DNA from: a phage
DNA: 64,000 bases
Sequence record: OZ336094.1
Direction: 5' to 3' (one strand)
A program made the position numbers and the translations under genes. How positions within the stretch are numbered: the first letter of the stretch is position 1; every line of letters starts with the position of its first letter. Of this stretch, positions 30,070 to 47,967 are shown one piece after another. The notes under the pieces are model-generated. The model saw only the letters and a program-made list of their open reading frames with translations. It was not told where the DNA came from and did not search any database.

Positions 30070-32031
30070 GTGATTTTAACACGTCCAAATAGTGCCATTG
30101 CAGACATGGTAGAGTCTCGCTATAGAAAGCGTAGAAGTTTTGCAAGTGGTTTTACCTTAAGAGATGCTCGTGAAGCATTGCTCTTTGAAACTGACGGTAA
30201 CTACTATCAGTGGAAAGGTTCTCTACCTAAAGTTGTACCTGCTAACTCTACTCCTACATCTACTGGAGGGATTTCAGATACAGCTTGGAAAAATGTGGGT
30301 AATGCAGATGACATTGCTCAAATAGAATCAGAATTAGATGCTATTGAAGCTGAAATTGAAGATCTTAGAGAATCCATTCCAGAAGCTGGTAAATCAGCTT
30401 ACCAGATTGCCGTAGACAATGGTTTCCAAGGTACTGAGACAGAGTGGTTGGCTTCTTTAAAAGGTGATCCAGGTGCTCCATTAAAGCTGCTAGGGACGCT
30501 ATCTAATACCAACCAATTACCTACAACTGGAAACAATGCAGGAGATGCATGGATTGTAGGCGAGAATATGTATGCTTGGGATGGTACTGCTTGGAGAAAA
30601 GTAAACTCACAGGGGCCAGAAGGTAAATCGGCTTATCAAGTTTGGCTTGCAGCAGGAAACCAAGGTACAGAACTAGATTATCTTGCTTCAATTAAAGGTG
30701 ATAAAGGGGAGCCTGGCCCAGAGGGGCCACAAGGTGTACCAGGTAACAATGCTAATGGTTTTGATTACCAAGGTGCAGCTAATTCCGTTTCAGATCTTCC
30801 TTCTGCATCTCCTGGAAACACATCTCAAGCATGGAATATTGGTACATATCTATACGTGTCAAACGGTGTAGAATGGATCAATATGGGCGCTATAGTGGGG
30901 CCAAAAGGAGATAAAGGCGACAAAGGAGATAAGGGTAACACTGGTGATTCAGCTTATCAAGTCTGGTTAAACGCTGGTAACGTTGGTACTATTGACGAAT
31001 ATATTGCCTCTCTGAAAGGAGAAAAAGGTGATAAGGGAGATAAGGGTGATCAAGGTGAGCAGGGTATACAAGGCTTGACGGGGCCAACTGGTGCAGGGTT
31101 GACCATTATTGATATTCTGACTGACACTTCTGAACTACCACAAACTGGAGAAGATGGTGATGGTTATCTGATCAATAATGAACTTTGGGTTTGGTTGCAA
31201 GGAGCCACACAGTGGACAAATGTTGGTCGTTTAGCTGGTACTCCAATCACTGCAAAAGGACACGTTGCGTCTGCAAGTGCACTTCCTCCTACATCCAATT
31301 ACGGTGATGCTTATTTGACGGAAGATACAGGTCATCTTTACATTTACACCTATGATGAACAAACTCAAACTGCTGAATATGTAGATATGGGTAGTTTGAA
31401 AGGTGATAAGGGTGAGAAAGGTGACGCTGGTACTAACGGTACAGACGGTGCTACTTGGATTGTTAAAACAACAGATCCAATCTCTAGTGATGGTAAACAA
31501 GGTGATTATGCCTTTAATATCTCCACTGGCGAGGTGTTCTTAAAAACATCTGCAACTGTCTGGACTTCTCAAGGTACACTACCTAGCATCACAGATGCAC
31601 CTAGTGACGGTAAGATCTATGCTCGTAAAGATGGAGCATGGGAAGAACTCACTAGTTCTGTAGATGGTCAAGATATAGTTCCAACAAAAGTAACAACTAA
31701 TTTTATAGAGGTTACAGCATATACCAACAACTCTGTTACAGGCGACTGGACACCTCCAGGAACACATAACATGAATGTGTTGAATCTTACTGGTAACTCT
31801 ACTATAAAAGCATGGCCTGGTGTCGAAGATAGCACAAAACCTAAACCATTCTCTGCAATAGTTTATCTTATCCAAGATGCCACTGGGGGTCGTACTGTTA
31901 CTTTAGATCCATCTTACAAAGTAATTGGTTCTAGTGATATTAATACAGATCCTAACGGAGTAACAATACTACAACTAACATATTGTGGTGTTGGCGATTA
32001 CGTGGATGCTATTGTTGCTAAACGCACATAA
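30070..32031 (+). CDS. Tail fibre with collagen-like G-X-Y tracts
   Basis: 653 aa; GDKGEPGPEGPQGVPG, GPKGDKGDKGDKGNTGD, GEKGDKGDKGDQGEQGIQGLTGPTGAG, GDKGEKGDAGTNGTDGA. Confidence 0.6.
   Translation: MILTRPNSAIADMVESRYRKRRSFASGFTLRDAREALLFETDGNYYQWKGSLPKVVPANSTPTSTGGISDTAWKNVGNADDIAQIESELDAIEAEIEDLRESIPEAGKSAYQIAVDNGFQGTETEWLASLKGDPGAPLKLLGTLSNTNQLPTTGNNAGDAWIVGENMYAWDGTAWRKVNSQGPEGKSAYQVWLAAGNQGTELDYLASIKGDKGEPGPEGPQGVPGNNANGFDYQGAANSVSDLPSASPGNTSQAWNIGTYLYVSNGVEWINMGAIVGPKGDKGDKGDKGNTGDSAYQVWLNAGNVGTIDEYIASLKGEKGDKGDKGDQGEQGIQGLTGPTGAGLTIIDILTDTSELPQTGEDGDGYLINNELWVWLQGATQWTNVGRLAGTPITAKGHVASASALPPTSNYGDAYLTEDTGHLYIYTYDEQTQTAEYVDMGSLKGDKGEKGDAGTNGTDGATWIVKTTDPISSDGKQGDYAFNISTGEVFLKTSATVWTSQGTLPSITDAPSDGKIYARKDGAWEELTSSVDGQDIVPTKVTTNFIEVTAYTNNSVTGDWTPPGTHNMNVLNLTGNSTIKAWPGVEDSTKPKPFSAIVYLIQDATGGRTVTLDPSYKVIGSSDINTDPNGVTILQLTYCGVGDYVDAIVAKRT
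30391..31446 (+). repeat. Collagen-like G-X-Y triplet tracts plus three copies of a ~30-aa SAYQ...LASLKG motif
   Basis: Seen in the translation: GKSAYQIAVDNGFQGTETEWLASLKG / GKSAYQVWLAAGNQGTELDYLASIKG / GDSAYQVWLNAGNVGTIDEYIASLKG, each followed by a G-X-Y tract. Confidence 0.7.
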
Positions 32032-36045: not shown

Positions 36046-36065
36046 TATATCTCCTTCAAAGAAAA

Positions 36066-36081
36066 GGAGCCGTTAGGCTCC
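36066..36081 (-). terminator. Terminator hairpin downstream of the SSB-like gene
   Basis: ggagcc-gtta-ggctcc hairpin, same stem as the 34898 hairpin; a T-tract follows on the minus strand. Confidence 0.45.
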
Positions 36082-36105
36082 TTATATTCACACAATACTT
36101 AACTA

Positions 36106-37053
36106 TTAGAAACAGTGCAGGAAGTTTCGACCATACTGCAAACCAATAGGAGCAAATGGGATATCATCATCGAAGTCTTGAACAACAGGTTCTGGTTCTT
36201 TCGGTGCTGGCTCTTTCTTCTCTACTTTTTTAGTTTCTTTCTTAACTTCTTGTACTGGGGTAGACATTCCACGGATAGCAGCAGCTACTTTATCAGACAA
36301 AGCAAGAACTTCACGAGCAGCTTCAATAATCTCTTCTGCCGTTACAGTTTTACCTGTATGATCACGACAAGCGTTAAGAATTGCGTGTCCAACTGAAGCA
36401 CCAAGATCATAGTCAGTTACATCAACGCCACGATCTTTAGCAATTTCAGCTTTCAGAGTAACAGTTGCAGATTGTACCACACCAGCCAAGTCGAAAGCAT
36501 CACCTTTTACACCAGCACGTAGAAGCTCCAGAGCGCCGTTTACAGCGTGTCCTGTTTCAATCCCTACGGTATCACGTTTTTTGTAGTTAGGCTTGCTACC
36601 GTCATTATTAGAGGGCTTATTTCCACCTTTTGAAGAGGATTGTGCTTGCTGAACACCTTCTGTTGAAAGAATAGTGATTTTACCTTTAGAGGAGTTGTAG
36701 TATGTTTTGCCATTCCATTCAGAAGGTTTAACATCCATAGTTAGTTCTACACCTTTTTCGATAGTAACCCACTTATCACCATCTTTAACTTGCAGGTTTT
36801 CATGTTCTGGGTGCAGTTTAACTTCACCTAGGCTAACCCAAACACCTTTATCATCAGCACCAGCACCTTTCTCTTTAATAAGCAGAGATGCTTTGTGAGT
36901 TGATTCAATTTTCTTATCTGGCTGACCTGCAACCTTAATATAAGAGACTTTCATTTCATCAAACTTATCTAGTTTGACATATTCAACGATACCTTCAGCC
37001 CAGAATGCTTCTTTTTTAGTACGACGGTCGATTTCAGAATTAATTACTGGCAT
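36106..37053 (-). CDS. ssb: Putative single-stranded DNA-binding protein with an SSB-Ct-like acidic motif
   Basis: DFDDDIPF matches the E. coli SSB C-terminal tip but is followed here by 15 more residues (APIGLQYGRNFLHCF); position within the replication module. Confidence 0.45.
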   Translation of the reverse strand: MPVINSEIDRRTKKEAFWAEGIVEYVKLDKFDEMKVSYIKVAGQPDKKIESTHKASLLIKEKGAGADDKGVWVSLGEVKLHPEHENLQVKDGDKWVTIEKGVELTMDVKPSEWNGKTYYNSSKGKITILSTEGVQQAQSSSKGGNKPSNNDGSKPNYKKRDTVGIETGHAVNGALELLRAGVKGDAFDLAGVVQSATVTLKAEIAKDRGVDVTDYDLGASVGHAILNACRDHTGKTVTAEEIIEAAREVLALSDKVAAAIRGMSTPVQEVKKETKKVEKKEPAPKEPEPVVQDFDDDIPFAPIGLQYGRNFLHCF

Positions 37054-37069
37054 AAATTCTCCTCTATAA

Positions 37070-37468
37070 TTACATTACTTTAACACAAAACTCTCGTAAA
37101 AGAGTAGCGTCAGTTTCTTCCAACAGGTATTTACCAAGACCAATACCAAATCCTATTTCACCACTTTCAAAATGGAGGATTTGTATCTTTTCTCCACCAA
37201 GGTTAATTACTTTTGCTTTTCCAGGATTATCCAAAACATCTCGTATTGTATCCTGTAGTAACATAAGTTCACGTTTTGTGATAGTGGTTTCAGATATCTC
37301 TTTGTTTTCTACTCTCACTGTTAAACGGTTGTATCCACCAAAGAGACATAGTATTTGAATAAAAAAGGTATTATCTTGAGGTTCAACATCTTTTTTAGTT
37401 AGCTCAAGACGATTAGTTTCTCTACTGTAGAACGTCTCGACTAAGATTTTAGAACGATTATCTGTCAT
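37070..37468 (-). CDS. Hypothetical protein
   Basis: 132-aa ORF with GAGGA RBS. Confidence 0.4.
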   Translation of the reverse strand: MTDNRSKILVETFYSRETNRLELTKKDVEPQDNTFFIQILCLFGGYNRLTVRVENKEISETTITKRELMLLQDTIRDVLDNPGKAKVINLGGEKIQILHFESGEIGFGIGLGKYLLEETDATLLREFCVKVM

Positions 37469-37511
37469 TCAAGTCCTCATAATAACACACAATTATAATG
37501 TTTGTCAACAC

Positions 37512-38105
37512 TTAAATTTTAAATTCTTCATTGTTAAATGAATCCAGTGTACGTACTTCTGGTTCTTTGGGAATGAAAACGTCTTTTACAAAGCGGAACA
37601 TGGGGAAACGTTCTGCCATTTTACGGACGTGTGCTTCTTTACCTGTGTATCGGTGATTAATAGTACAAATATTAGTTTTCAGTGCAAATTCAAAATCTGG
37701 ATGATATACATAATTTTGACCATCCCAGTAACACAAGCAAATAGCTACATCAAAGTTCCATACGATTTCACTGCGTACACCTTCTTCCATGATCATAAAG
37801 TTAAACTTAAGATCTTTATAGTATGCTTCAAATACCCATTTCAAATGTGGTAGTTCGGCATAAGTGTGTTCTGTTTGCTTAGTAAGTTGTTTAACATTAC
37901 GTGCACCAACACCCAACATCAAAAATTTCTCTACTAATACGAGTGTATTGTGGTTAGGCATACGCAAGTAAATGTCAATATCTTGCGCAGGTTTCTCTAA
38001 TCGCCAGTCACGTACAGCGCCGCCAGCTACAATTGCAAACGGATCTACCAGTTGGCACATACGTAATACTTCTAAAGCTCGTACTTTTTGATCTTCAATA
38101 TTCAT
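37512..38105 (-). CDS. Minimal pol-beta-superfamily nucleotidyltransferase (CCA-adding-enzyme head-like)
   Basis: Motif VAGGAVRDWRLEKPAQDIDIYL fits the GGxVRD...DxD signature of class II CCA/poly(A) polymerase head domains; only 197 aa. Confidence 0.5.
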   Translation of the reverse strand: MNIEDQKVRALEVLRMCQLVDPFAIVAGGAVRDWRLEKPAQDIDIYLRMPNHNTLVLVEKFLMLGVGARNVKQLTKQTEHTYAELPHLKWVFEAYYKDLKFNFMIMEEGVRSEIVWNFDVAICLCYWDGQNYVYHPDFEFALKTNICTINHRYTGKEAHVRKMAERFPMFRFVKDVFIPKEPEVRTLDSFNNEEFKI

Positions 38106-38242
38106 ATTTTCTCCTATCTCTTATGGTCTTTGCGTTATTCTAGATGTTCAAACATCTAATTATGAAATGGTTTAAAAGTGTGGAACAACCTTGGCAATAA
38201 TAGATTGTCCCACATAAAAACTCCTTTAAAATCAAAGAGATG

Positions 38243-40822
38243 TCAGTGACAACTAGCCCATGAGTTACCAACATCGTAACCAGCAGTGAGAGGTACATTA
38301 AGATTGTAATACTCACCAGCTTTATTAACAGCGATAGATGCTAATTCTCCAGCACGACTGTAGGCTGTAAACCAACCACCTTTCGGAGATTCATGTACGT
38401 TAGCCCAAATCTTGCCAGTACGTTTCTCTTCCTCTTCTTTCCAGGCATTAACTTTATCCAAACATTCTTTATCAATTTTCTTTTGTTCTTCTGGATCATC
38501 AACTTGAGTCCAACCTAAAGATTCTTTAGAGAACCATTTAAAATGCACCAGATCACGAGTTACTTCAAGCTGCGCTTCATCGTGATATGCAATCATTTGT
38601 TGAACGAATGACTTATTTTTCCAGTCATCAACAAAAAAGTCAACAGCTAATCCTTCTTCTTCGATAAGATCGTCGTAGATAACCATTGCTCTTTTTGCAC
38701 AAATAACACCACCACTCTGGAACAGAGAGTTAAGTATTGCGTGTGCAGATCGTGTAGGTACTTTTCTACCATCAATACCGAGAATGTATTTCTTACCTGT
38801 TTTAACCCAAAAATCATGCAGACGTTCTTTAAGAAGCGCAAGAGGTTTTGCAGCTTCCCAGAAAGCATCGTATACAAGCTGTCCTGTATACATATCACTA
38901 CCTATAGTTTTTGCTACTTTTGCAGCTTGAGCACCATAAGTAATACCATACTTAACAGATTTAGCAGGGCTTCGTTCAAACTTACGACCAATAGTGTCAG
39001 AAATACGTCGAGCCATCATTGTATGAACATCATTAGGTTTTTCCAATAATAGAGCATTACAATATTCGTGTGGTTCTTGCTCGTACCGCCAACAGTAGTG
39101 TGATTCTATTTTTGCCTCAAGAGAATCAAAGTCATAACCAATTTGGAAGTATTTTGGAACTTCTACACCAAATAAGTTACGCATTTCATATCCGTACAGA
39201 GATGTTACACGTGGGATATTTGCTACTAACCTATGTTTCATACGAGACGTAGCTGCATCACACGTTGCAGCAGGAGTTGGTATACGACCATCAGCCCTTA
39301 CTGCCGCCAGATAACCTTTATCGTAATCCTCTTCATCTTCTTCCCAATCAGCACCACCCCCTAGAATAGAGTTCCTACGGTGTTTATACGTAAGATACTG
39401 CACAATCTGCGTAGCATAAGGAAACTTTTCACCTAGTGCTTCCAAGTTAGGACAAATATCTTTCTCTTGCCCTTTTGTAAAGGAAGGGTTAGTAAGCACT
39501 TTAACACCACGACCTTTAGCTTTAGCAATACGATCTCTTAGTTTCCATTCCAAAGTTTCTGGTGTGCACTCTAGATGATCACATCTGTCCTGGCAGAAGT
39601 TAGATGCTAACGTTTGATCAACATAGTCACGAATAGCTTTCTCCATTTGTGCTTCATCTTTCTTAATCTTAGTGCCAGATTTAAGAGTGATATCTTTATC
39701 TTTGTATTCAGATGGACTCCAACCTAAACCAACTAACCAGTTTTTAATATGTGTAGTGTCGTCTAAAGTAGCAGGTACTGTAGGATCACAAATAGGTTCT
39801 TCTGCTGGAATAGGTAGTTTAAACTCCTTACCTAATGCAAATAGCCACCAACCATCTTCTTTTTGTACAAGTTCACCAGAATGTTTCTCTGCAAACTTTA
39901 TCATGTTACTTGAAGGTTCACCATTCTTTTTAAACTGTAGTTTAGGTGGAATGAATGATTTCAAATAACCTTTGGTAGCAGGTTTAGGAGGTAGCACAGG
40001 TTCTGCCTCTAAACGACATGCTTCCATTCGAGCATCCAGATCACGAATATTATCTTCTGCTTGTTTCATATTGAAAGCAAAGCCACGGTGCTCTTGACGT
40101 GTAATAATATCAGCTACACGTTGTTCTAAGTTAAATGGTTCAGACCACTTATTATAATCACCCCACTCTTCCATCAAATAACGGAACACTGCGGTGTTAG
40201 CTTTGTTATCGTAAATACAGTAATACAGCATATCTGCTGCAAATGTTTTAAATCTTTCAGTTTCAGGAATGTTTTTTCTAAAATCAATTTTAACATCCCC
40301 TCCAGCTTTCTTAGATAACTCTGCCAGACTATGACCACCGAAGCGATCAGGGTTTAGTGTCTTACTTAAGATCATAGTATCACAAATTTCAATGTTACTA
40401 TCACCCCAAGTATTGTACTTAACACTGTAGTTGAGTTTAAAAAATAATTTAATTGCCAGTAAGTCGAAGTTAATGATGTTGTGTCCAACTACTTTGGTAA
40501 TTTTATAGTTTGAATTACCTTTAAATTTACCTGTTCCATTTACAAAATCAGGAAAATCTTTAAGAGGGAAATGGGTATATTCTAAATGCTCATATTCCTC
40601 CAGTCGGTATTCATACTTTCCGTCAGTCTCAACATACGGACGACCATCGAAAAGATATTTATCACCATCATGGAAAGCAATAATCTCTCCAGTATCATGA
40701 CTTTCGCACACAATACAGTGCATTGCAAAACTATCTTTTAAACGATATGGACTTGCCAAGTAATCTACACTTTCGTCATTAAGCAAGTTGTTACTTTCAA
40801 TGTCGAAAGTAAAAGCTCCCAT
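38243..40822 (-). CDS. DNA polymerase, family A, with N-terminal 3'-5' exonuclease
   Basis: 859 aa; N-terminal FDIESNN Exo I-type motif; overall PolA-like polymerase motifs. Confidence 0.8.
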   Translation of the reverse strand: MGAFTFDIESNNLLNDESVDYLASPYRLKDSFAMHCIVCESHDTGEIIAFHDGDKYLFDGRPYVETDGKYEYRLEEYEHLEYTHFPLKDFPDFVNGTGKFKGNSNYKITKVVGHNIINFDLLAIKLFFKLNYSVKYNTWGDSNIEICDTMILSKTLNPDRFGGHSLAELSKKAGGDVKIDFRKNIPETERFKTFAADMLYYCIYDNKANTAVFRYLMEEWGDYNKWSEPFNLEQRVADIITRQEHRGFAFNMKQAEDNIRDLDARMEACRLEAEPVLPPKPATKGYLKSFIPPKLQFKKNGEPSSNMIKFAEKHSGELVQKEDGWWLFALGKEFKLPIPAEEPICDPTVPATLDDTTHIKNWLVGLGWSPSEYKDKDITLKSGTKIKKDEAQMEKAIRDYVDQTLASNFCQDRCDHLECTPETLEWKLRDRIAKAKGRGVKVLTNPSFTKGQEKDICPNLEALGEKFPYATQIVQYLTYKHRRNSILGGGADWEEDEEDYDKGYLAAVRADGRIPTPAATCDAATSRMKHRLVANIPRVTSLYGYEMRNLFGVEVPKYFQIGYDFDSLEAKIESHYCWRYEQEPHEYCNALLLEKPNDVHTMMARRISDTIGRKFERSPAKSVKYGITYGAQAAKVAKTIGSDMYTGQLVYDAFWEAAKPLALLKERLHDFWVKTGKKYILGIDGRKVPTRSAHAILNSLFQSGGVICAKRAMVIYDDLIEEEGLAVDFFVDDWKNKSFVQQMIAYHDEAQLEVTRDLVHFKWFSKESLGWTQVDDPEEQKKIDKECLDKVNAWKEEEEKRTGKIWANVHESPKGGWFTAYSRAGELASIAVNKAGEYYNLNVPLTAGYDVGNSWASCH

Positions 40823-43103: not shown

Positions 43104-43373
43104 CTAAAATGATTCGTTTGTCTCCATAATATATTGCATTTCCAAATCTTCCATATGTTTCTTAAATTGGTAAACAATTTCCGATGGGGAAATATCTATA
43201 TCAAAAAGTTCTTTTGTACCAGAATAAAATCTAATACCATCAACAATAAGACCACCATAATAATCCCAATCACTTTCTCGTGAGAAAGGATTAGGTTCTT
43301 CATAATAGTAATCTACTTCAACAATAATAGGTTCTTTATTATCTTGTTTATACTCAAAATCAAAAGTGTTCAT
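43104..43373 (-). CDS. Hypothetical protein
   Basis: 89-aa acidic ORF. Confidence 0.35.
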   Translation of the reverse strand: MNTFDFEYKQDNKEPIIVEVDYYYEEPNPFSRESDWDYYGGLIVDGIRFYSGTKELFDIDISPSEIVYQFKKHMEDLEMQYIMETNESF

Positions 43374-44317
43374 TATAAATCCTCGATAAGCAGTCTGCGG
43401 GTTTCATTTAAATCATCAATATTGTAGTTATCTCTTACATACTTAGCAAGAGCCAATCCTTTCTCAATACAAACATCAGGAGATTCGATTAAGTATTCTA
43501 CAATATCTTTCCACTCTTTAACTGAATCAGCAAAGAAGATTAGATCTTTAAATTCTTCAGTATAATAGTTCTCTCGTGGAGAACAGACGAGTGGCAAACC
43601 TTTAGCACCAGCTTCAAGAATTTTTAAATTACTTTTGGCATTATTAAAATGATTATTTACTAATGGAGCTATGGAGATTTGATGACCATCGTATGCTTCC
43701 ATATAACACTCATAAGGACGAATACCTTCATAAACACAATCTGGTTGAATATCTTCTTTAATTTGCAACCATTGAGCACTACTTAACTCTTCGTGATCTC
43801 TACGAAATCCACATAAAGTTAAATCTTTACCAAAACCAGGAAGAATTGCTAAATCATGTTTATGTGTTTCACTTCCCGCCCAAACCAGTGGACTTTTAGA
43901 ATAACGGTCTTTCGTAAGAACAAACTGTCCTTCATCAAAAGGTAGTCCGTTAGGCACAATATGTACATTATCATTGTATTGGCTTAATTCAACCTTTAAT
44001 GCCGGAGTTGTTGTAGTTACAAGATCGCTTCTTTCAAGGAACCATTTTAGGTCATCTCGGATTTGATTTTCAAATAATCCTTCAAGCATATGCCCTTCAG
44101 GAATAATTAAAGAATCATCCAGATCCATTACCAATTTAAACCCAAGTTGTTTAAGAGCCAGGAAACCTGGCTTTCCACGTGTTGGTACTCCATTGAACAC
44201 AAAAATATTATGCTTAGGATTAATGGTCAGTTTGCGTTTATATGGCAAAATGATTCTATGAAAATCACATACACTATACTTTTCATTTCCGCGTGTGTCA
44301 AGAATAATATTAGGCAT
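43373..44317 (-). CDS. Glycosyltransferase, GT-B fold (paralog 1)
   Basis: C-terminal nucleotide-sugar-binding-like motif NAKSNLKILEAGAKGLPLVCSP; clear paralog of the adjacent gene (shared PYDEGQFTLTKDRYS, IAPLV-N-FNN-KSNLKILEAGAKGLP). Confidence 0.5.
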   Translation of the reverse strand: MPNIILDTRGNEKYSVCDFHRIILPYKRKLTINPKHNIFVFNGVPTRGKPGFLALKQLGFKLVMDLDDSLIIPEGHMLEGLFENQIRDDLKWFLERSDLVTTTTPALKVELSQYNDNVHIVPNGLPFDEGQFVLTKDRYSKSPLVWAGSETHKHDLAILPGFGKDLTLCGFRRDHEELSSAQWLQIKEDIQPDCVYEGIRPYECYMEAYDGHQISIAPLVNNHFNNAKSNLKILEAGAKGLPLVCSPRENYYTEEFKDLIFFADSVKEWKDIVEYLIESPDVCIEKGLALAKYVRDNYNIDDLNETRRLLIEDL

Positions 44318-44328
44318 ATAGCTCCTTA

Positions 44329-45342
44329 TTAAAGACTTTCAATAACTTGACGACGCAGTTCATTGGCATCTGCAAGATTATAATTAAGACGAACGTGTTC
44401 TGCAAGCATCATACCACGATCTTCTGTGTATCTAGGGTTCCTCATTAGCTTGACAACTTCATAATGCCAAGATGCTTTAGAGTCTGCATAGATAACAGCC
44501 TTTGCATCTACCGGATTGAAGTACGGCAGCACAGGAGAACAGATAATAGGAAGACCCTTTGCACCTGCTTCCAAAATCTTCAAATTGCTTTTACAGTTGT
44601 TGAAGTCATTATCTACCAGAGGAGCAATTGCAATACTGTGACCGTCATACACAGACATATACTCACCTAAATTTTTAATAGCTGGTTTATACTGTGCATT
44701 TGGAATTTTACGTTTTATTTTAACCCACTCCGCAGTAGTTAGATACTGACTGTTATTTCCAACAGGTGCAGAAGGATACACTTCATACCCTGCAATTGTC
44801 AATAGTGTATCATCAAATGTATTAGCTACAAGAGATAAATCAGGTTCATGGCTTGCTCCTCCAGCCCAAACAATAGGTGTGTCAGAATAACGGTCTTTTG
44901 TTAAAGTAAATTGACCTTCGTCGTAAGGCAGTGCGTTTCTAATAACGACAACATTACGATTTAAATGACGAATTTTGTAAGCTAGGTATTCTGTTGTTAC
45001 TGTAACAACATCTGCTAACTTAACCATCTCTACAATAGTTTTTGAGTGATTAGTAAATACGCCAGCCATATAATGTTCAGGATTAAGCGAATAAAAATCA
45101 TCTAAATCAACAATAATCTTAACACCTTGTGCCTTCAGGCGTTTAACTTCGTCTGATCCACGAGAATACACTCTATTAAAAACTAAAACGTCTTTCTTAG
45201 GCTTAAACGTATTTCCCGCAAATGGCATTACAATACGATGGTAATCACAACCACTGCCTAACTTATTATCACACTTAAGTACAGGAGTATTAGGATTTAC
45301 CATATTTTTGAGCCTCCTCATAAGAGATAAAAGTTTTACCAT
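44329..45342 (-). CDS. Glycosyltransferase, GT-B fold (paralog 2)
   Basis: Paralog of 43373..44317 with the same conserved blocks. Confidence 0.5.
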   Translation of the reverse strand: MVKLLSLMRRLKNMVNPNTPVLKCDNKLGSGCDYHRIVMPFAGNTFKPKKDVLVFNRVYSRGSDEVKRLKAQGVKIIVDLDDFYSLNPEHYMAGVFTNHSKTIVEMVKLADVVTVTTEYLAYKIRHLNRNVVVIRNALPYDEGQFTLTKDRYSDTPIVWAGGASHEPDLSLVANTFDDTLLTIAGYEVYPSAPVGNNSQYLTTAEWVKIKRKIPNAQYKPAIKNLGEYMSVYDGHSIAIAPLVDNDFNNCKSNLKILEAGAKGLPIICSPVLPYFNPVDAKAVIYADSKASWHYEVVKLMRNPRYTEDRGMMLAEHVRLNYNLADANELRRQVIESL

Positions 45343-46053
45343 TGCGAAGATCCTCCAGTGATTGTTTATATTGTTCCCAGTTTACACCAATCCCCTGTTC
45401 TTTCTCTTCTTTTGACAGATTCGCAAAAGGTAAAGGATTATCTCCAAACACATCGTCAGGATGGATAAACGCCATAATTCGAATAGGACATGGTACACCG
45501 AGAATGCCTCGGTTCAAACCTGCCAGTGGAACGCGCTGAATCCACTCTGCATCTTCATATCCATAACCGTGGGTGTATGAGCGGAAATAGCCAGCTTTCT
45601 CAATAACTGCACGGGAATACATACCAAACTGGCACATACCTAGTTCCCAAATAACCACCTCCCCTTCAATACCTTTTACTTTATCTTTAAAGTATTCAGG
45701 CATACCAAAGAAATCCCAACCATTTTCCTTTGCCTCTCCCCTTCAATACCTTTTACTTTATCTTTAAAGTATTCAGGCATACCAAAGAAATCCCAACCAT
45801 TTTCCTTTGCCTGTTTTACAAAATATGTTTCCCACCCTGGAACAACAGGATAGCAATCATCATCAAAAATAAACCAGTAGTCATACCCTTCATCATAAAA
45901 CTTTTTCATCAGTTCATTACGGGCATATGCAACACCTTTTCGTTCACGATCATACTGTACAACAAAAGTAGCATTAGGATCAGTCACAAGATAATCTTTA
46001 AGAGGACGCTTACCTACAGTAATAACACCAACACCAATTTTTGTATTTTCCAA
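45290..46053 (-). pseudogene. GT-A (DxD) glycosyltransferase-like gene split by a 77-bp tandem duplication
   Basis: Upstream ORF (MENTK...FIFDDDCYP...GMPEYFKDKVKGIEGE) runs into a shifted frame and stops; the downstream ORF restarts with the same peptide MPEYFKDKVKGIEGE...; deleting one copy gives a continuous 229-codon frame. Confidence 0.55.
45659..45812. repeat. Perfect 77-bp tandem direct duplication (2 copies)
   Basis: 45659-45735 and 45736-45812 are identical base for base; 77 is not a multiple of 3. Confidence 0.9.
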
Positions 46054-46062
46054 AATAACTCC

Positions 46063-46626
46063 TTAAATAATTTTATTCATGTCTTGACAATGTAAAAGGT
46101 GTGAAACAGCTTTTCTAGGATCATCATTACCTAAACGGTATGTGTGAAATAAATATAACCCACGTAGTAAACCTAGCCTTTTATTGTTAGCGTGCAATGC
46201 TTTAGAGAAAATTATATCAAACTGTATTGATCTTTCCTCAAAAGGGATTTCATTCCACAGACTCTTACGAAAGAGAAGAAAGAATCCTGCTAAGATAGCA
46301 TCTGTAGGTACTTCCTCTATTGAGTTTCCCCATTCTAGATGTGCTCTTTTTGCAATCTCAATGTGGTGTAATATATTCGGATCTTCACTTCTTTCATTAT
46401 TAAATAATTGATATGTTGATCCCAATCTGTTACAAGATGCACCAAGAACATCAAAATCAGGATTTGAACGGACAATTGATTCCAGCCAAGCAGGTTGTTC
46501 TGGAAGAAGAAACATTGTATCAATGTCTCTTAGGCAAATCCAACTATCTTCTGGTAAGACACTTATTGTGTCATTGATACCTTTTCCAATATCTCCAGAA
46601 AGATAGGGAGTTATGTGAAATATCAT
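46063..46626 (-). CDS. Hypothetical protein, possibly glycosyltransferase-related
   Basis: 187-aa ORF co-linear with the glycosyltransferase genes; LRDIDTMF may be a DxD-like motif (weak). Confidence 0.3.
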   Translation of the reverse strand: MIFHITPYLSGDIGKGINDTISVLPEDSWICLRDIDTMFLLPEQPAWLESIVRSNPDFDVLGASCNRLGSTYQLFNNERSEDPNILHHIEIAKRAHLEWGNSIEEVPTDAILAGFFLLFRKSLWNEIPFEERSIQFDIIFSKALHANNKRLGLLRGLYLFHTYRLGNDDPRKAVSHLLHCQDMNKII

Positions 46627-47947: not shown

Positions 47948-47967
47948 GAGGGGGATAATCCCCCCTC
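47948..47967 (-). terminator. Hairpin, possible terminator
   Basis: gaggggg-ataat-cccccctc stem-loop downstream of 47978..48580; weak T-tract. Confidence 0.3.

What the first reader, a model, noticed from the sequence alone, without database searches (positions are those of the whole stretch)
45659..45812. Perfect 77-bp tandem duplication that frameshifts a glycosyltransferase gene
Positions 45659-45735 and 45736-45812 are identical base for base. The duplication lies inside a GT-A-like coding sequence and, being 77 bp, shifts the frame: the peptide GMPEYFKDKVKGIEGE is encoded twice, the upstream ORF stops 19 codons into the second copy, and a second ORF restarts at the Met in the repeat. Removing one copy restores one 229-codon frame. 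This is either a recent inactivating or phase-variable mutation, or an assembly artefact.
Basis: seen in the sequence. Interest (0 to 1): 0.6.

Follow-up and report, generated by a model that had tools for sequence, protein, structure and literature searches.

The report
Assembler overlap left inside rotated genome
The exact 77-bp doubling that seems to break a phage glycosyltransferase gene is almost certainly a leftover of the genome assembly software, not a mutation, so the gene should be read as intact.

Summary
Window 45659-45735 and 45736-45812 are identical, and the repeat splits the phi92 gp165-type glycosyltransferase gene (minus strand, 45290..46053) into 125-aa and 137-aa ORFs. Removing one copy gives a 228-aa protein identical to that of phage Paula.

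The mutation reading is very unlikely.
- 77 bp is the terminal overlap that SPAdes leaves on contigs of circular or circularly permuted genomes (PMC9409062).
- The repeat is exactly 77 bp, with no microhomology.
- The window starts on the first base of the terminase start codon, so the contig was rotated after assembly.
- Rotating an untrimmed contig places its two ends side by side and creates exactly this tandem.
- The sister genome Paula (7 differences in about 59 kb outside one recombination patch) has one copy. Its record is a raw SPAdes contig with the same artefact unrotated: an exact 127-bp overlap at its ends, cutting a gene.
- All 56 related phage records and 10 independent contigs have one copy.

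One oddity remains. A metagenome scaffold of the same clade has a 252-bp deletion that rejoins at the first base of the unit, so the unit equals the k=77 graph vertex of such a variant. Read-level proof was not available. Verdict: not a real feature, about 0.88.

The parts
45659..45735 (.). Copy 1 of the 77-bp unit. It is inferred to be the 3' end of the original assembler contig, in window orientation.
   Evidence: TRF; exact identity and exact 154-bp periodic range.
45736..45812 (.). Copy 2 of the 77-bp unit. It is inferred to be the 5' end of the original contig. The join 45735|45736 is where the two contig ends were placed side by side on rotation.
   Evidence: The junction 31-mer is not found in any collection searched. 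All relatives have one copy.
45290..46053 (-). Gene for the phi92 gp165 / PAULA_0153 homolog, a GT-A-like glycosyltransferase. It is intact (687 bp, 228 aa) once one 77-bp copy is removed.
   Evidence: The restored protein is identical to CAD2070376.1, QHR67475.1 and QXV83785.1. It gives a full-length match to phrog_2456 glycosyltransferase, E 1.2e-78, and a sub-threshold Pfam TAGT match. For the phi92 annotation.
45676..46053 (-). Apparent N-terminal fragment ORF (125 aa, TTG start): 106 native residues, including the FDDDC motif, plus 19 out-of-frame residues.
   Evidence: This exact protein is absent from the 15-billion-protein collection.
45290..45703 (-). Apparent C-terminal fragment ORF (137 aa) starting at the Met inside the repeat.
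   Evidence: The exact sequence occurs only on two damaged ENA contigs, L006 and L007, and neither carries the duplication.
1..2085 (+). Large terminase gene. Its GTG start codon is window base 1, which shows the genome was re-oriented after assembly.
   Evidence: Open frame from base 1 to a stop at 2083-2085. It corresponds to PAULA_0197 terminase, 115038..117122. Records ZYD and Eryne start at the same base. The convention is described for Eryne in PMC11984140.
46063..46626 (-). Upstream neighbour, the gp166-homolog glycosyltransferase (187 aa). It was used as the anchor to fetch independent contigs.
   Evidence: phrog_14179. In 10/10 contigs that encode it, an intact 228-aa gene follows.
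43373..45342 (-). Downstream neighbours, the gp164 and gp163 homologs. They are paralogous GT-B-like glycosyltransferases and complete a four-glycosyltransferase cluster.
   Evidence: Both match phrog_7162. They are 41% identical to each other. For the phi92 annotation.

Best explanation
The duplication is an assembly and re-orientation artefact, not part of the phage DNA. The genome was assembled from short reads with SPAdes at a final k of 77. Because this phage's reads form a circle in the assembly graph, the single contig began and ended with the same 77-mer. The contig was then rotated so that it starts at the terminase large-subunit start codon, a common convention, without first trimming the overlap. 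That placed the two contig ends next to each other at window 45735|45736 and produced an exact 2 x 77 bp tandem. The join happens to fall inside the gp165-type glycosyltransferase gene and, because 77 mod 3 = 2, appears to frameshift it. The real gene is intact (228 aa).

What is shown: the exactness and length of the repeat, the rotation, its absence from all relatives, and the same artefact in unrotated form in the sister record.

What is inferred: that SPAdes with k=77 was used for this genome, and that no reads span the junction.

A secondary, weaker inference (about 0.3) concerns why the contig ends sat at this base. A minority variant with the 252-bp deletion seen in scaffold L006 would create a branch in the k=77 graph whose convergence vertex is exactly this 77-mer, and a circular path can remain anchored at such a vertex.
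For: 1. The length is exactly 77 bp, the copies are 100% identical, and the periodic range is exactly 154 bp, so the unit is unambiguously 77.
2. [quoted passage not shown] From my own knowledge, SPAdes' automatic k lists end at 77 for reads of 150 bp or more and at 127 for reads of 250 bp or more.
3. Window base 1 is the first base of the terL GTG start codon. [quoted passage not shown]
4. The nearest relative, Paula (LR865361.1), differs from the window by 43 substitutions in 64 kb, 36 of them in one 4.6-kb patch, and has a single copy. Paula's record carries a SPAdes contig label (NODE_1_length_146554_cov_304). Its first 127 bp equal its last 127 bp exactly and no further, cutting gene PAULA_0001. 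That is the same artefact with k=127, not rotated.
5. All 56 related phage records have one copy. So do 10/10 independent ENA, Logan and NCBI contigs.
6. The frameshifted 125-aa product exists nowhere among about 15 billion proteins, while the restored 228-aa protein is on 38 contigs.
7. At k=77, and at none of the other k values tested (55, 99, 127), the vertex at which the L006 deletion path rejoins the wild-type path equals the duplicated unit.
Against: - No reads, assembly graph or methods for the source genome were available, so the use of SPAdes with k=77 and the absence of junction-spanning reads are not shown.
- A real tandem duplication of exactly 77 bp is possible. SPAdes would report a real two-copy loop the same way.
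- L006 shares a breakpoint with the unit boundary at single-base resolution. That could instead mean this base is a real rearrangement hot spot.
- The negative junction searches carry little weight, because even the single-copy 30-mer of this clade is missing from those collections.
Confidence: 0.88

Rival explanations
1. It is a real, very recent tandem duplication in this isolate that knocks out the gp165-type glycosyltransferase. It might have arisen during laboratory propagation on a host where the enzyme is dispensable.
For: The sequence as given contains it. The glycosyltransferase cluster does vary in nature: L011 has a gp163/gp164 paralog fusion and L006 a 252-bp deletion in this very gene. 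Zero divergence between the copies fits a recent event.
Against: - The length equals the assembler k exactly.
- There is no microhomology at the boundaries, which replication slippage would normally leave.
- The genome was rotated.
- The near-identical sister Paula and every other relative have one copy.
- The frameshifted product is seen nowhere else.
- The coincidence of length 77 alone costs roughly two orders of magnitude in likelihood. This is my estimate, not a computed value.
Confidence: 0.08
2. It is a real rearrangement hot spot or reversible switch. A site-specific break or nick at C|AGGCAAAGG in gp165 repeatedly seeds rearrangements (the 77-bp duplication here, the 252-bp deletion in L006). 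The duplication acts as a reversible off state that homologous recombination between the two copies can revert.
For: The L006 deletion rejoins at exactly the first base of the unit. L006 belongs to the same narrow clade: it is 100% identical to the window across its aligned pieces and has the window's allele at 47961.
Against: - Only one such scaffold exists. It is gappy and low quality, with four runs of N.
- There is no copy-number variation in 66 relatives.
- No inverted repeat, hairpin or notable motif lies at the boundaries.
- This reading explains the position but not why the length is exactly 77, whereas the artefact reading with a variant-anchored graph vertex explains both.
Confidence: 0.03
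3. It is another kind of artefact. One option is two contigs, or two assemblies, merged by hand with a 77-bp overlap left in. Another is a genuine short direct terminal repeat of the packaged DNA collapsed into the map.
For: Adjacent SPAdes contigs also overlap by k, so a manual join would give the same picture (my own knowledge of de Bruijn assemblers).
Against: A physical terminal repeat in the middle of a conserved enzyme gene is implausible, and no relative's record starts or ends here. A manual join is a variant of the main explanation and has the same consequence: the gene is intact.
Confidence: 0.01

Closest known systems
SPAdes k-mer terminal overlap on contigs of circular or circularly permuted phage genomes (77 bp or 127 bp)
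   Same: The repeat is exact, its length equals the final k, it falls at an arbitrary place including inside genes, and it is absent from the real DNA. It is described for Salmonella phages (77 bp, PMC9409062), therapeutic phages (127 bp, PMC5923482) and U136B (127 bp, PMC8104045). It is present in the sister record Paula (127 bp).
   Different: Here the two copies are adjacent and internal (45.7 kb from the start) rather than at the two ends of the record, because the contig was rotated to the terminase start before trimming. The usual end-versus-end check therefore misses it, and it looks like a frameshifting mutation.
phi92 gp165 / PAULA_0153 / PaulScherrer bas60_0050 glycosyltransferase (PHROG 2456)
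   Same: After one copy is removed, the protein is 100% identical to the Paula, arall and PaulScherrer proteins. It has the same position in the gp163-gp166 four-glycosyltransferase cluster.
   Different: In this record the reading frame is split in two. The function of the family has not been tested. There is only a fold-level annotation in the phi92 RefSeq record and a sub-threshold Pfam TAGT match.
Genuine tandem duplications by replication slippage or unequal recombination in phage genomes
   Same: Head-to-tail identical copies that change the reading frame.
   Different: Genuine events usually show short homology at the boundaries and have no reason to match an assembler parameter. Here microhomology is 0 nt and the length equals k.

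Membership tests
Assembler k-mer overlap artefact (SPAdes), internalised by rotation | Repeat length equals a final k used by the assembler (77 or 127 by default) | tested here: met
   Period 77, and a periodic range of exactly 154 bp. The 77-bp overlap is documented in PMC9409062.
Assembler k-mer overlap artefact (SPAdes), internalised by rotation | The two copies are identical base for base | tested here: met
   77/77 identical.
Assembler k-mer overlap artefact (SPAdes), internalised by rotation | The sequence has been re-oriented relative to the raw contig | tested here: met
   Window base 1 is the first base of the terL start codon. The convention is documented.
Assembler k-mer overlap artefact (SPAdes), internalised by rotation | The extra copy is absent from close relatives and independent assemblies | tested here: met
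   56/56 phage records, 10/10 contigs, and Paula at 99.9% identity.
Assembler k-mer overlap artefact (SPAdes), internalised by rotation | Genomes of this type assemble as a circle and leave a k-sized overlap | tested here: met
   Paula's SPAdes contig has an exact 127-bp overlap between its start and end.
Assembler k-mer overlap artefact (SPAdes), internalised by rotation | No sequencing reads span the copy-to-copy junction, and depth is uniform on a one-copy reference | not testable with these tools
   The source reads are not available. The window's own genotype was not found in any collection.
Assembler k-mer overlap artefact (SPAdes), internalised by rotation | The source genome was assembled with SPAdes at k=77 | not testable with these tools
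   The source record and its methods were not identified.
Slippage-type genuine tandem duplication | Short direct homology at the two boundaries of the duplicated segment | tested here: not met
   The register does not extend by even one base on either side.
Phase-variable repeat switch | Copy number varies among relatives or populations | tested here: not met
   One copy in all 66 relatives examined.
Physical direct terminal repeat of the packaged genome | It lies at the genome ends, outside conserved coding sequence | tested here: not met
   It lies inside a conserved enzyme gene that is contiguous in every relative.
GT-A-fold glycosyltransferase (the gene that is hit) | Full-length match to a glycosyltransferase family and an acidic DXD-type motif | tested here: met
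   phrog_2456 matches residues 3-221 at E 1.2e-78. An FDDDC motif is present in the sequence. The phi92 RefSeq note reads 'polypeptide N-acetyl-galactosaminyl-transferase 2 fold'.
Pfam TAGT (TET-associated glycosyltransferase, PF20691) | Score above Pfam's gathering threshold | tested here: not met
   23.3 bits against a cut-off of 27.5, covering residues 16-75 only.

The most novel reading that the evidence does not exclude
The duplication is real, and window 45812/45813 is a site-specific break point in the gp165 glycosyltransferase gene of Paula-clade phages. It would seed both the 77-bp duplication here and the 252-bp deletion in metagenome scaffold L006. The duplication would then be a reversible off switch for a phage glycosyltransferase.
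Probability: 0.04. Interest if true: 0.45.

Novelty: not a real feature. Interest (0 to 1): 0.07.

Why it matters
As biology it matters little: the gene is most likely intact and ordinary.

As data quality it is useful. Rotating an untrimmed SPAdes contig hides the tell-tale end overlap inside the genome. There it adds 77 bp to the genome length, splits a gene into two false ORFs, and can be mistaken for a loss-of-function or phase-variable mutation. A simple screen would catch this class of error in deposited phage genomes: look for exact tandem repeats whose period is 55, 77, 99 or 127 in records that start at terL. The record should be corrected to one copy and the gene annotated at 45290..45976.

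Tried and rejected
- **Junction searches.** I searched three public collections for the copy-to-copy junction and found no hits. A control 30-mer from the single-copy unit is also absent, so these negatives say little.
- **Independent assembly of the same genotype.**
  - The gp166 anchor returned only relatives about 98% identical.
  - The polymerase, which separates the window from Paula, led to one 4-kb Logan contig that is only 99.3% identical at the DNA level.
  - Complete E. coli genomes and plasmids gave no match.
- **Source record.** A literature search did not find it. vB_EcoM_AMO3598 is a different lineage sequenced with 2x300 reads.
- **Exact 137-aa fragment.** I checked whether it marks other carriers of the duplication. 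It does not: L007 has an unrelated 22-bp gap at 1.4x coverage, and L006 has a deletion.
- **Local DNA features.** I looked for hairpins, inverted repeats or microhomology that could explain a real event and found only short chance repeats.
- **PDB sequence search.** It gave nothing meaningful for the protein.
- **Rejected readings.** Phase variation is rejected because there is no copy-number variation. A physical terminal repeat is rejected because the site lies inside a conserved gene.
- **Not done.** I did not run structure prediction, because the fold does not bear on the verdict.

Full report
**1. Observation**

Tandem Repeats Finder reports one array at 45659-45812: period 77, 2.0 copies, 100% matches, no indels. 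A direct comparison shows the two 77-mers are identical, and the period-77 register does not extend by one base on either side. The unit is therefore unambiguously 77 bp, with no microhomology at its boundaries. It is the only long tandem in the window.

- A 125-aa ORF (45676..46053) ends 19 out-of-frame codons into the second copy.
- A 137-aa ORF (45290..45703) starts at the Met inside the repeat.
- Removing one copy gives a single 228-aa frame.

**2. What the region is**

The window is a phi92-like Justusliebigvirus genome. The gene is the homolog of phi92 gp165, also known as PAULA_0153 and bas60_0050. It is the third gene of a four-glycosyltransferase cluster, gp163-gp166.

The restored protein is identical to the proteins of phages Paula, arall and PaulScherrer. 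It matches PHROG 2456 'glycosyltransferase' over its full length (E 1.2e-78). Pfam gives only a sub-threshold TAGT match, and a PDB sequence search gives nothing. It is a single-domain enzyme, and the duplication cuts that domain in the middle.

**3. Relatives**

All 56 related records in the phage collection align over a span 77 bp shorter than the query, so each has one copy. Ten independent contigs (ENA, Logan, NCBI), fetched through the adjacent gp166-homolog gene, all carry an intact 228-aa gene and one copy. The frameshifted 125-aa product occurs nowhere among about 15 billion proteins.

The closest relative, Paula (LR865361.1), differs from the window by 43 substitutions in 64 kb. Thirty-six of them lie in one 4.6-kb patch over the DNA polymerase region, leaving 7 differences in the other 59 kb or so. 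Paula has one copy.

**4. Why this is an artefact**

Three facts fit together.

First, the length. SPAdes leaves an overlap of exactly k bases at the two ends of a contig that closes on itself. [quoted passage not shown] From my own knowledge, 77 and 127 are the last values of SPAdes' automatic k lists for reads of at least 150 and at least 250 bp.

Second, the rotation. [quoted passage not shown] Two other records of the genus start at the same base. [quoted passage not shown] Rotating a contig that still carries its k-overlap puts its two ends side by side and creates an exact k-bp tandem at the old ends.

Third, the sister record shows the same artefact before rotation. Paula is a raw SPAdes contig (label NODE_1_length_146554_cov_304). 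Its first 127 bp equal its last 127 bp exactly and no further, and this overlap cuts through gene PAULA_0001. If that record were rotated untrimmed, it would show a 127-bp 'frameshifting duplication'.

**5. The one oddity**

The exact 137-aa fragment exists on two ENA contigs.
- L007 is a 1.4x-coverage contig with an unrelated 22-bp gap.
- L006 is a gappy infant-gut metagenome scaffold of the same narrow clade. It is 100% identical to the window in its aligned pieces and has the window's allele at 47961. It lacks 252 bp, running from the gp166 stop codon to exactly the first base of the 77-bp unit.

L006 was found because it yields the same ORF, so I estimate the chance of a base-exact coincidence at roughly 1 in 200.

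An explicit k-mer walk shows that, for k=77 only, the first k-mer that the deletion path shares again with the wild-type path is the duplicated unit itself. This suggests why the contig ends sat here. A minority deletion variant in the reads would create a branch at that vertex, and after the weak edge is removed a circular path can stay anchored there. This step is inference; the variant has not been shown in the source reads.

The alternative reading is a real break-prone site. It explains the position but not the length.

**6. Rivals**

- A real recent knock-out duplication (0.08) needs a coincidence of length with k, lacks boundary homology, and is absent from a sister genome that differs at only 7 sites outside the patch.
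- A hot spot or reversible switch (0.03) rests on one low-quality scaffold. No copy-number variation is seen in 66 relatives, and no structure-forming sequence lies at the boundaries.
- A manual contig join or a physical terminal repeat (0.01) either reduces to the same conclusion or is implausible inside a conserved gene.

**7. Limits**

The source record, its methods and its reads were not found. The junction searches were uninformative because the collections lack this clade's sequence altogether. The decisive test, junction-spanning reads or a PCR product of 194 versus 271 bp, could not be run.

**8. Verdict**

The mutation interpretation is very probably wrong, and the artefact alternative is right, through a specific, known and easily screened mechanism. 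The gene should be annotated intact at 45290..45976 after removal of one copy. Interest is low.

Noticed in passing
L006 3470-3621 (ENA ERZ28591284, HAYD20-1_SAMN10722261_METAG-scaffold_75); corresponds to window 45812-46064: A metagenome scaffold of the Paula/window clade lacks 252 bp of the gp165 gene. Its junction TTATTT(A)GGCAAAGG rejoins at exactly the first base of the 77-bp unit. At k=77 the convergence vertex of this variant equals the duplicated unit.
   Followed up: partly
L019 1-127 and L020 474-600 (LR865361.1 1-127 and 146428-146554): The Paula record keeps an exact 127-bp SPAdes end overlap. The depositors annotated it as 'Paula_Repeat'. It splits the glucose-1-phosphate thymidylyltransferase gene PAULA_0001, and the true genome is 127 bp shorter than the record.
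   Followed up: yes
window 36047-40633: 36 of the 43 substitutions between the window and Paula lie in this 4.6-kb stretch (gp156 homolog to DNA polymerase). The 11 in ORF 36106..37053 are all synonymous, and the polymerase has 5 amino-acid changes. This looks like a recombination patch in otherwise near-identical genomes.
   Followed up: partly
L011 11247-12191 (Logan SRR16555215_5163): This relative has one glycosyltransferase fewer. A single 314-aa gene, 72% identical to the gp163 homolog and 67% to the gp164 homolog, replaces the two paralogs, as if they had recombined.
   Followed up: partly
phage records MG065639.1, MG065645.1, MG065656.1, MG065689.1: Four records named 'Campylobacter phage', with host Campylobacter jejuni, are 97.6% identical to this E. 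coli phage genus over the region. They are probably mislabelled or contaminant genomes.
   Followed up: no
phage record PV682554.1 88147-88420: In Escherichia phage 92CQ the gp165-homolog glycosyltransferase is annotated as 'ribonucleotide reductase', an apparent annotation error.
   Followed up: no
window 31018-31055: This is the only other tandem array in the window: an 18-bp unit GGAGAAAAAGGTGATCAAG, 2.1 copies, 85% matches. It lies in the tail-fibre gene region.
   Followed up: no
window 38243-40822 versus L009, L012, L017: The DNA polymerase is 859 aa here, but 1104 aa in PaulScherrer and two other contigs. PaulScherrer's record annotates an intein-containing precursor.
   Followed up: no
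window 45290-45342: The longest ORF of the gp164 homolog (337 aa, 44329..45342) overlaps the 3' end of the gp165 homolog by 53 bp. Paula and phi92 annotate a later start (324 aa), while PaulScherrer annotates 337 aa.
   Followed up: no
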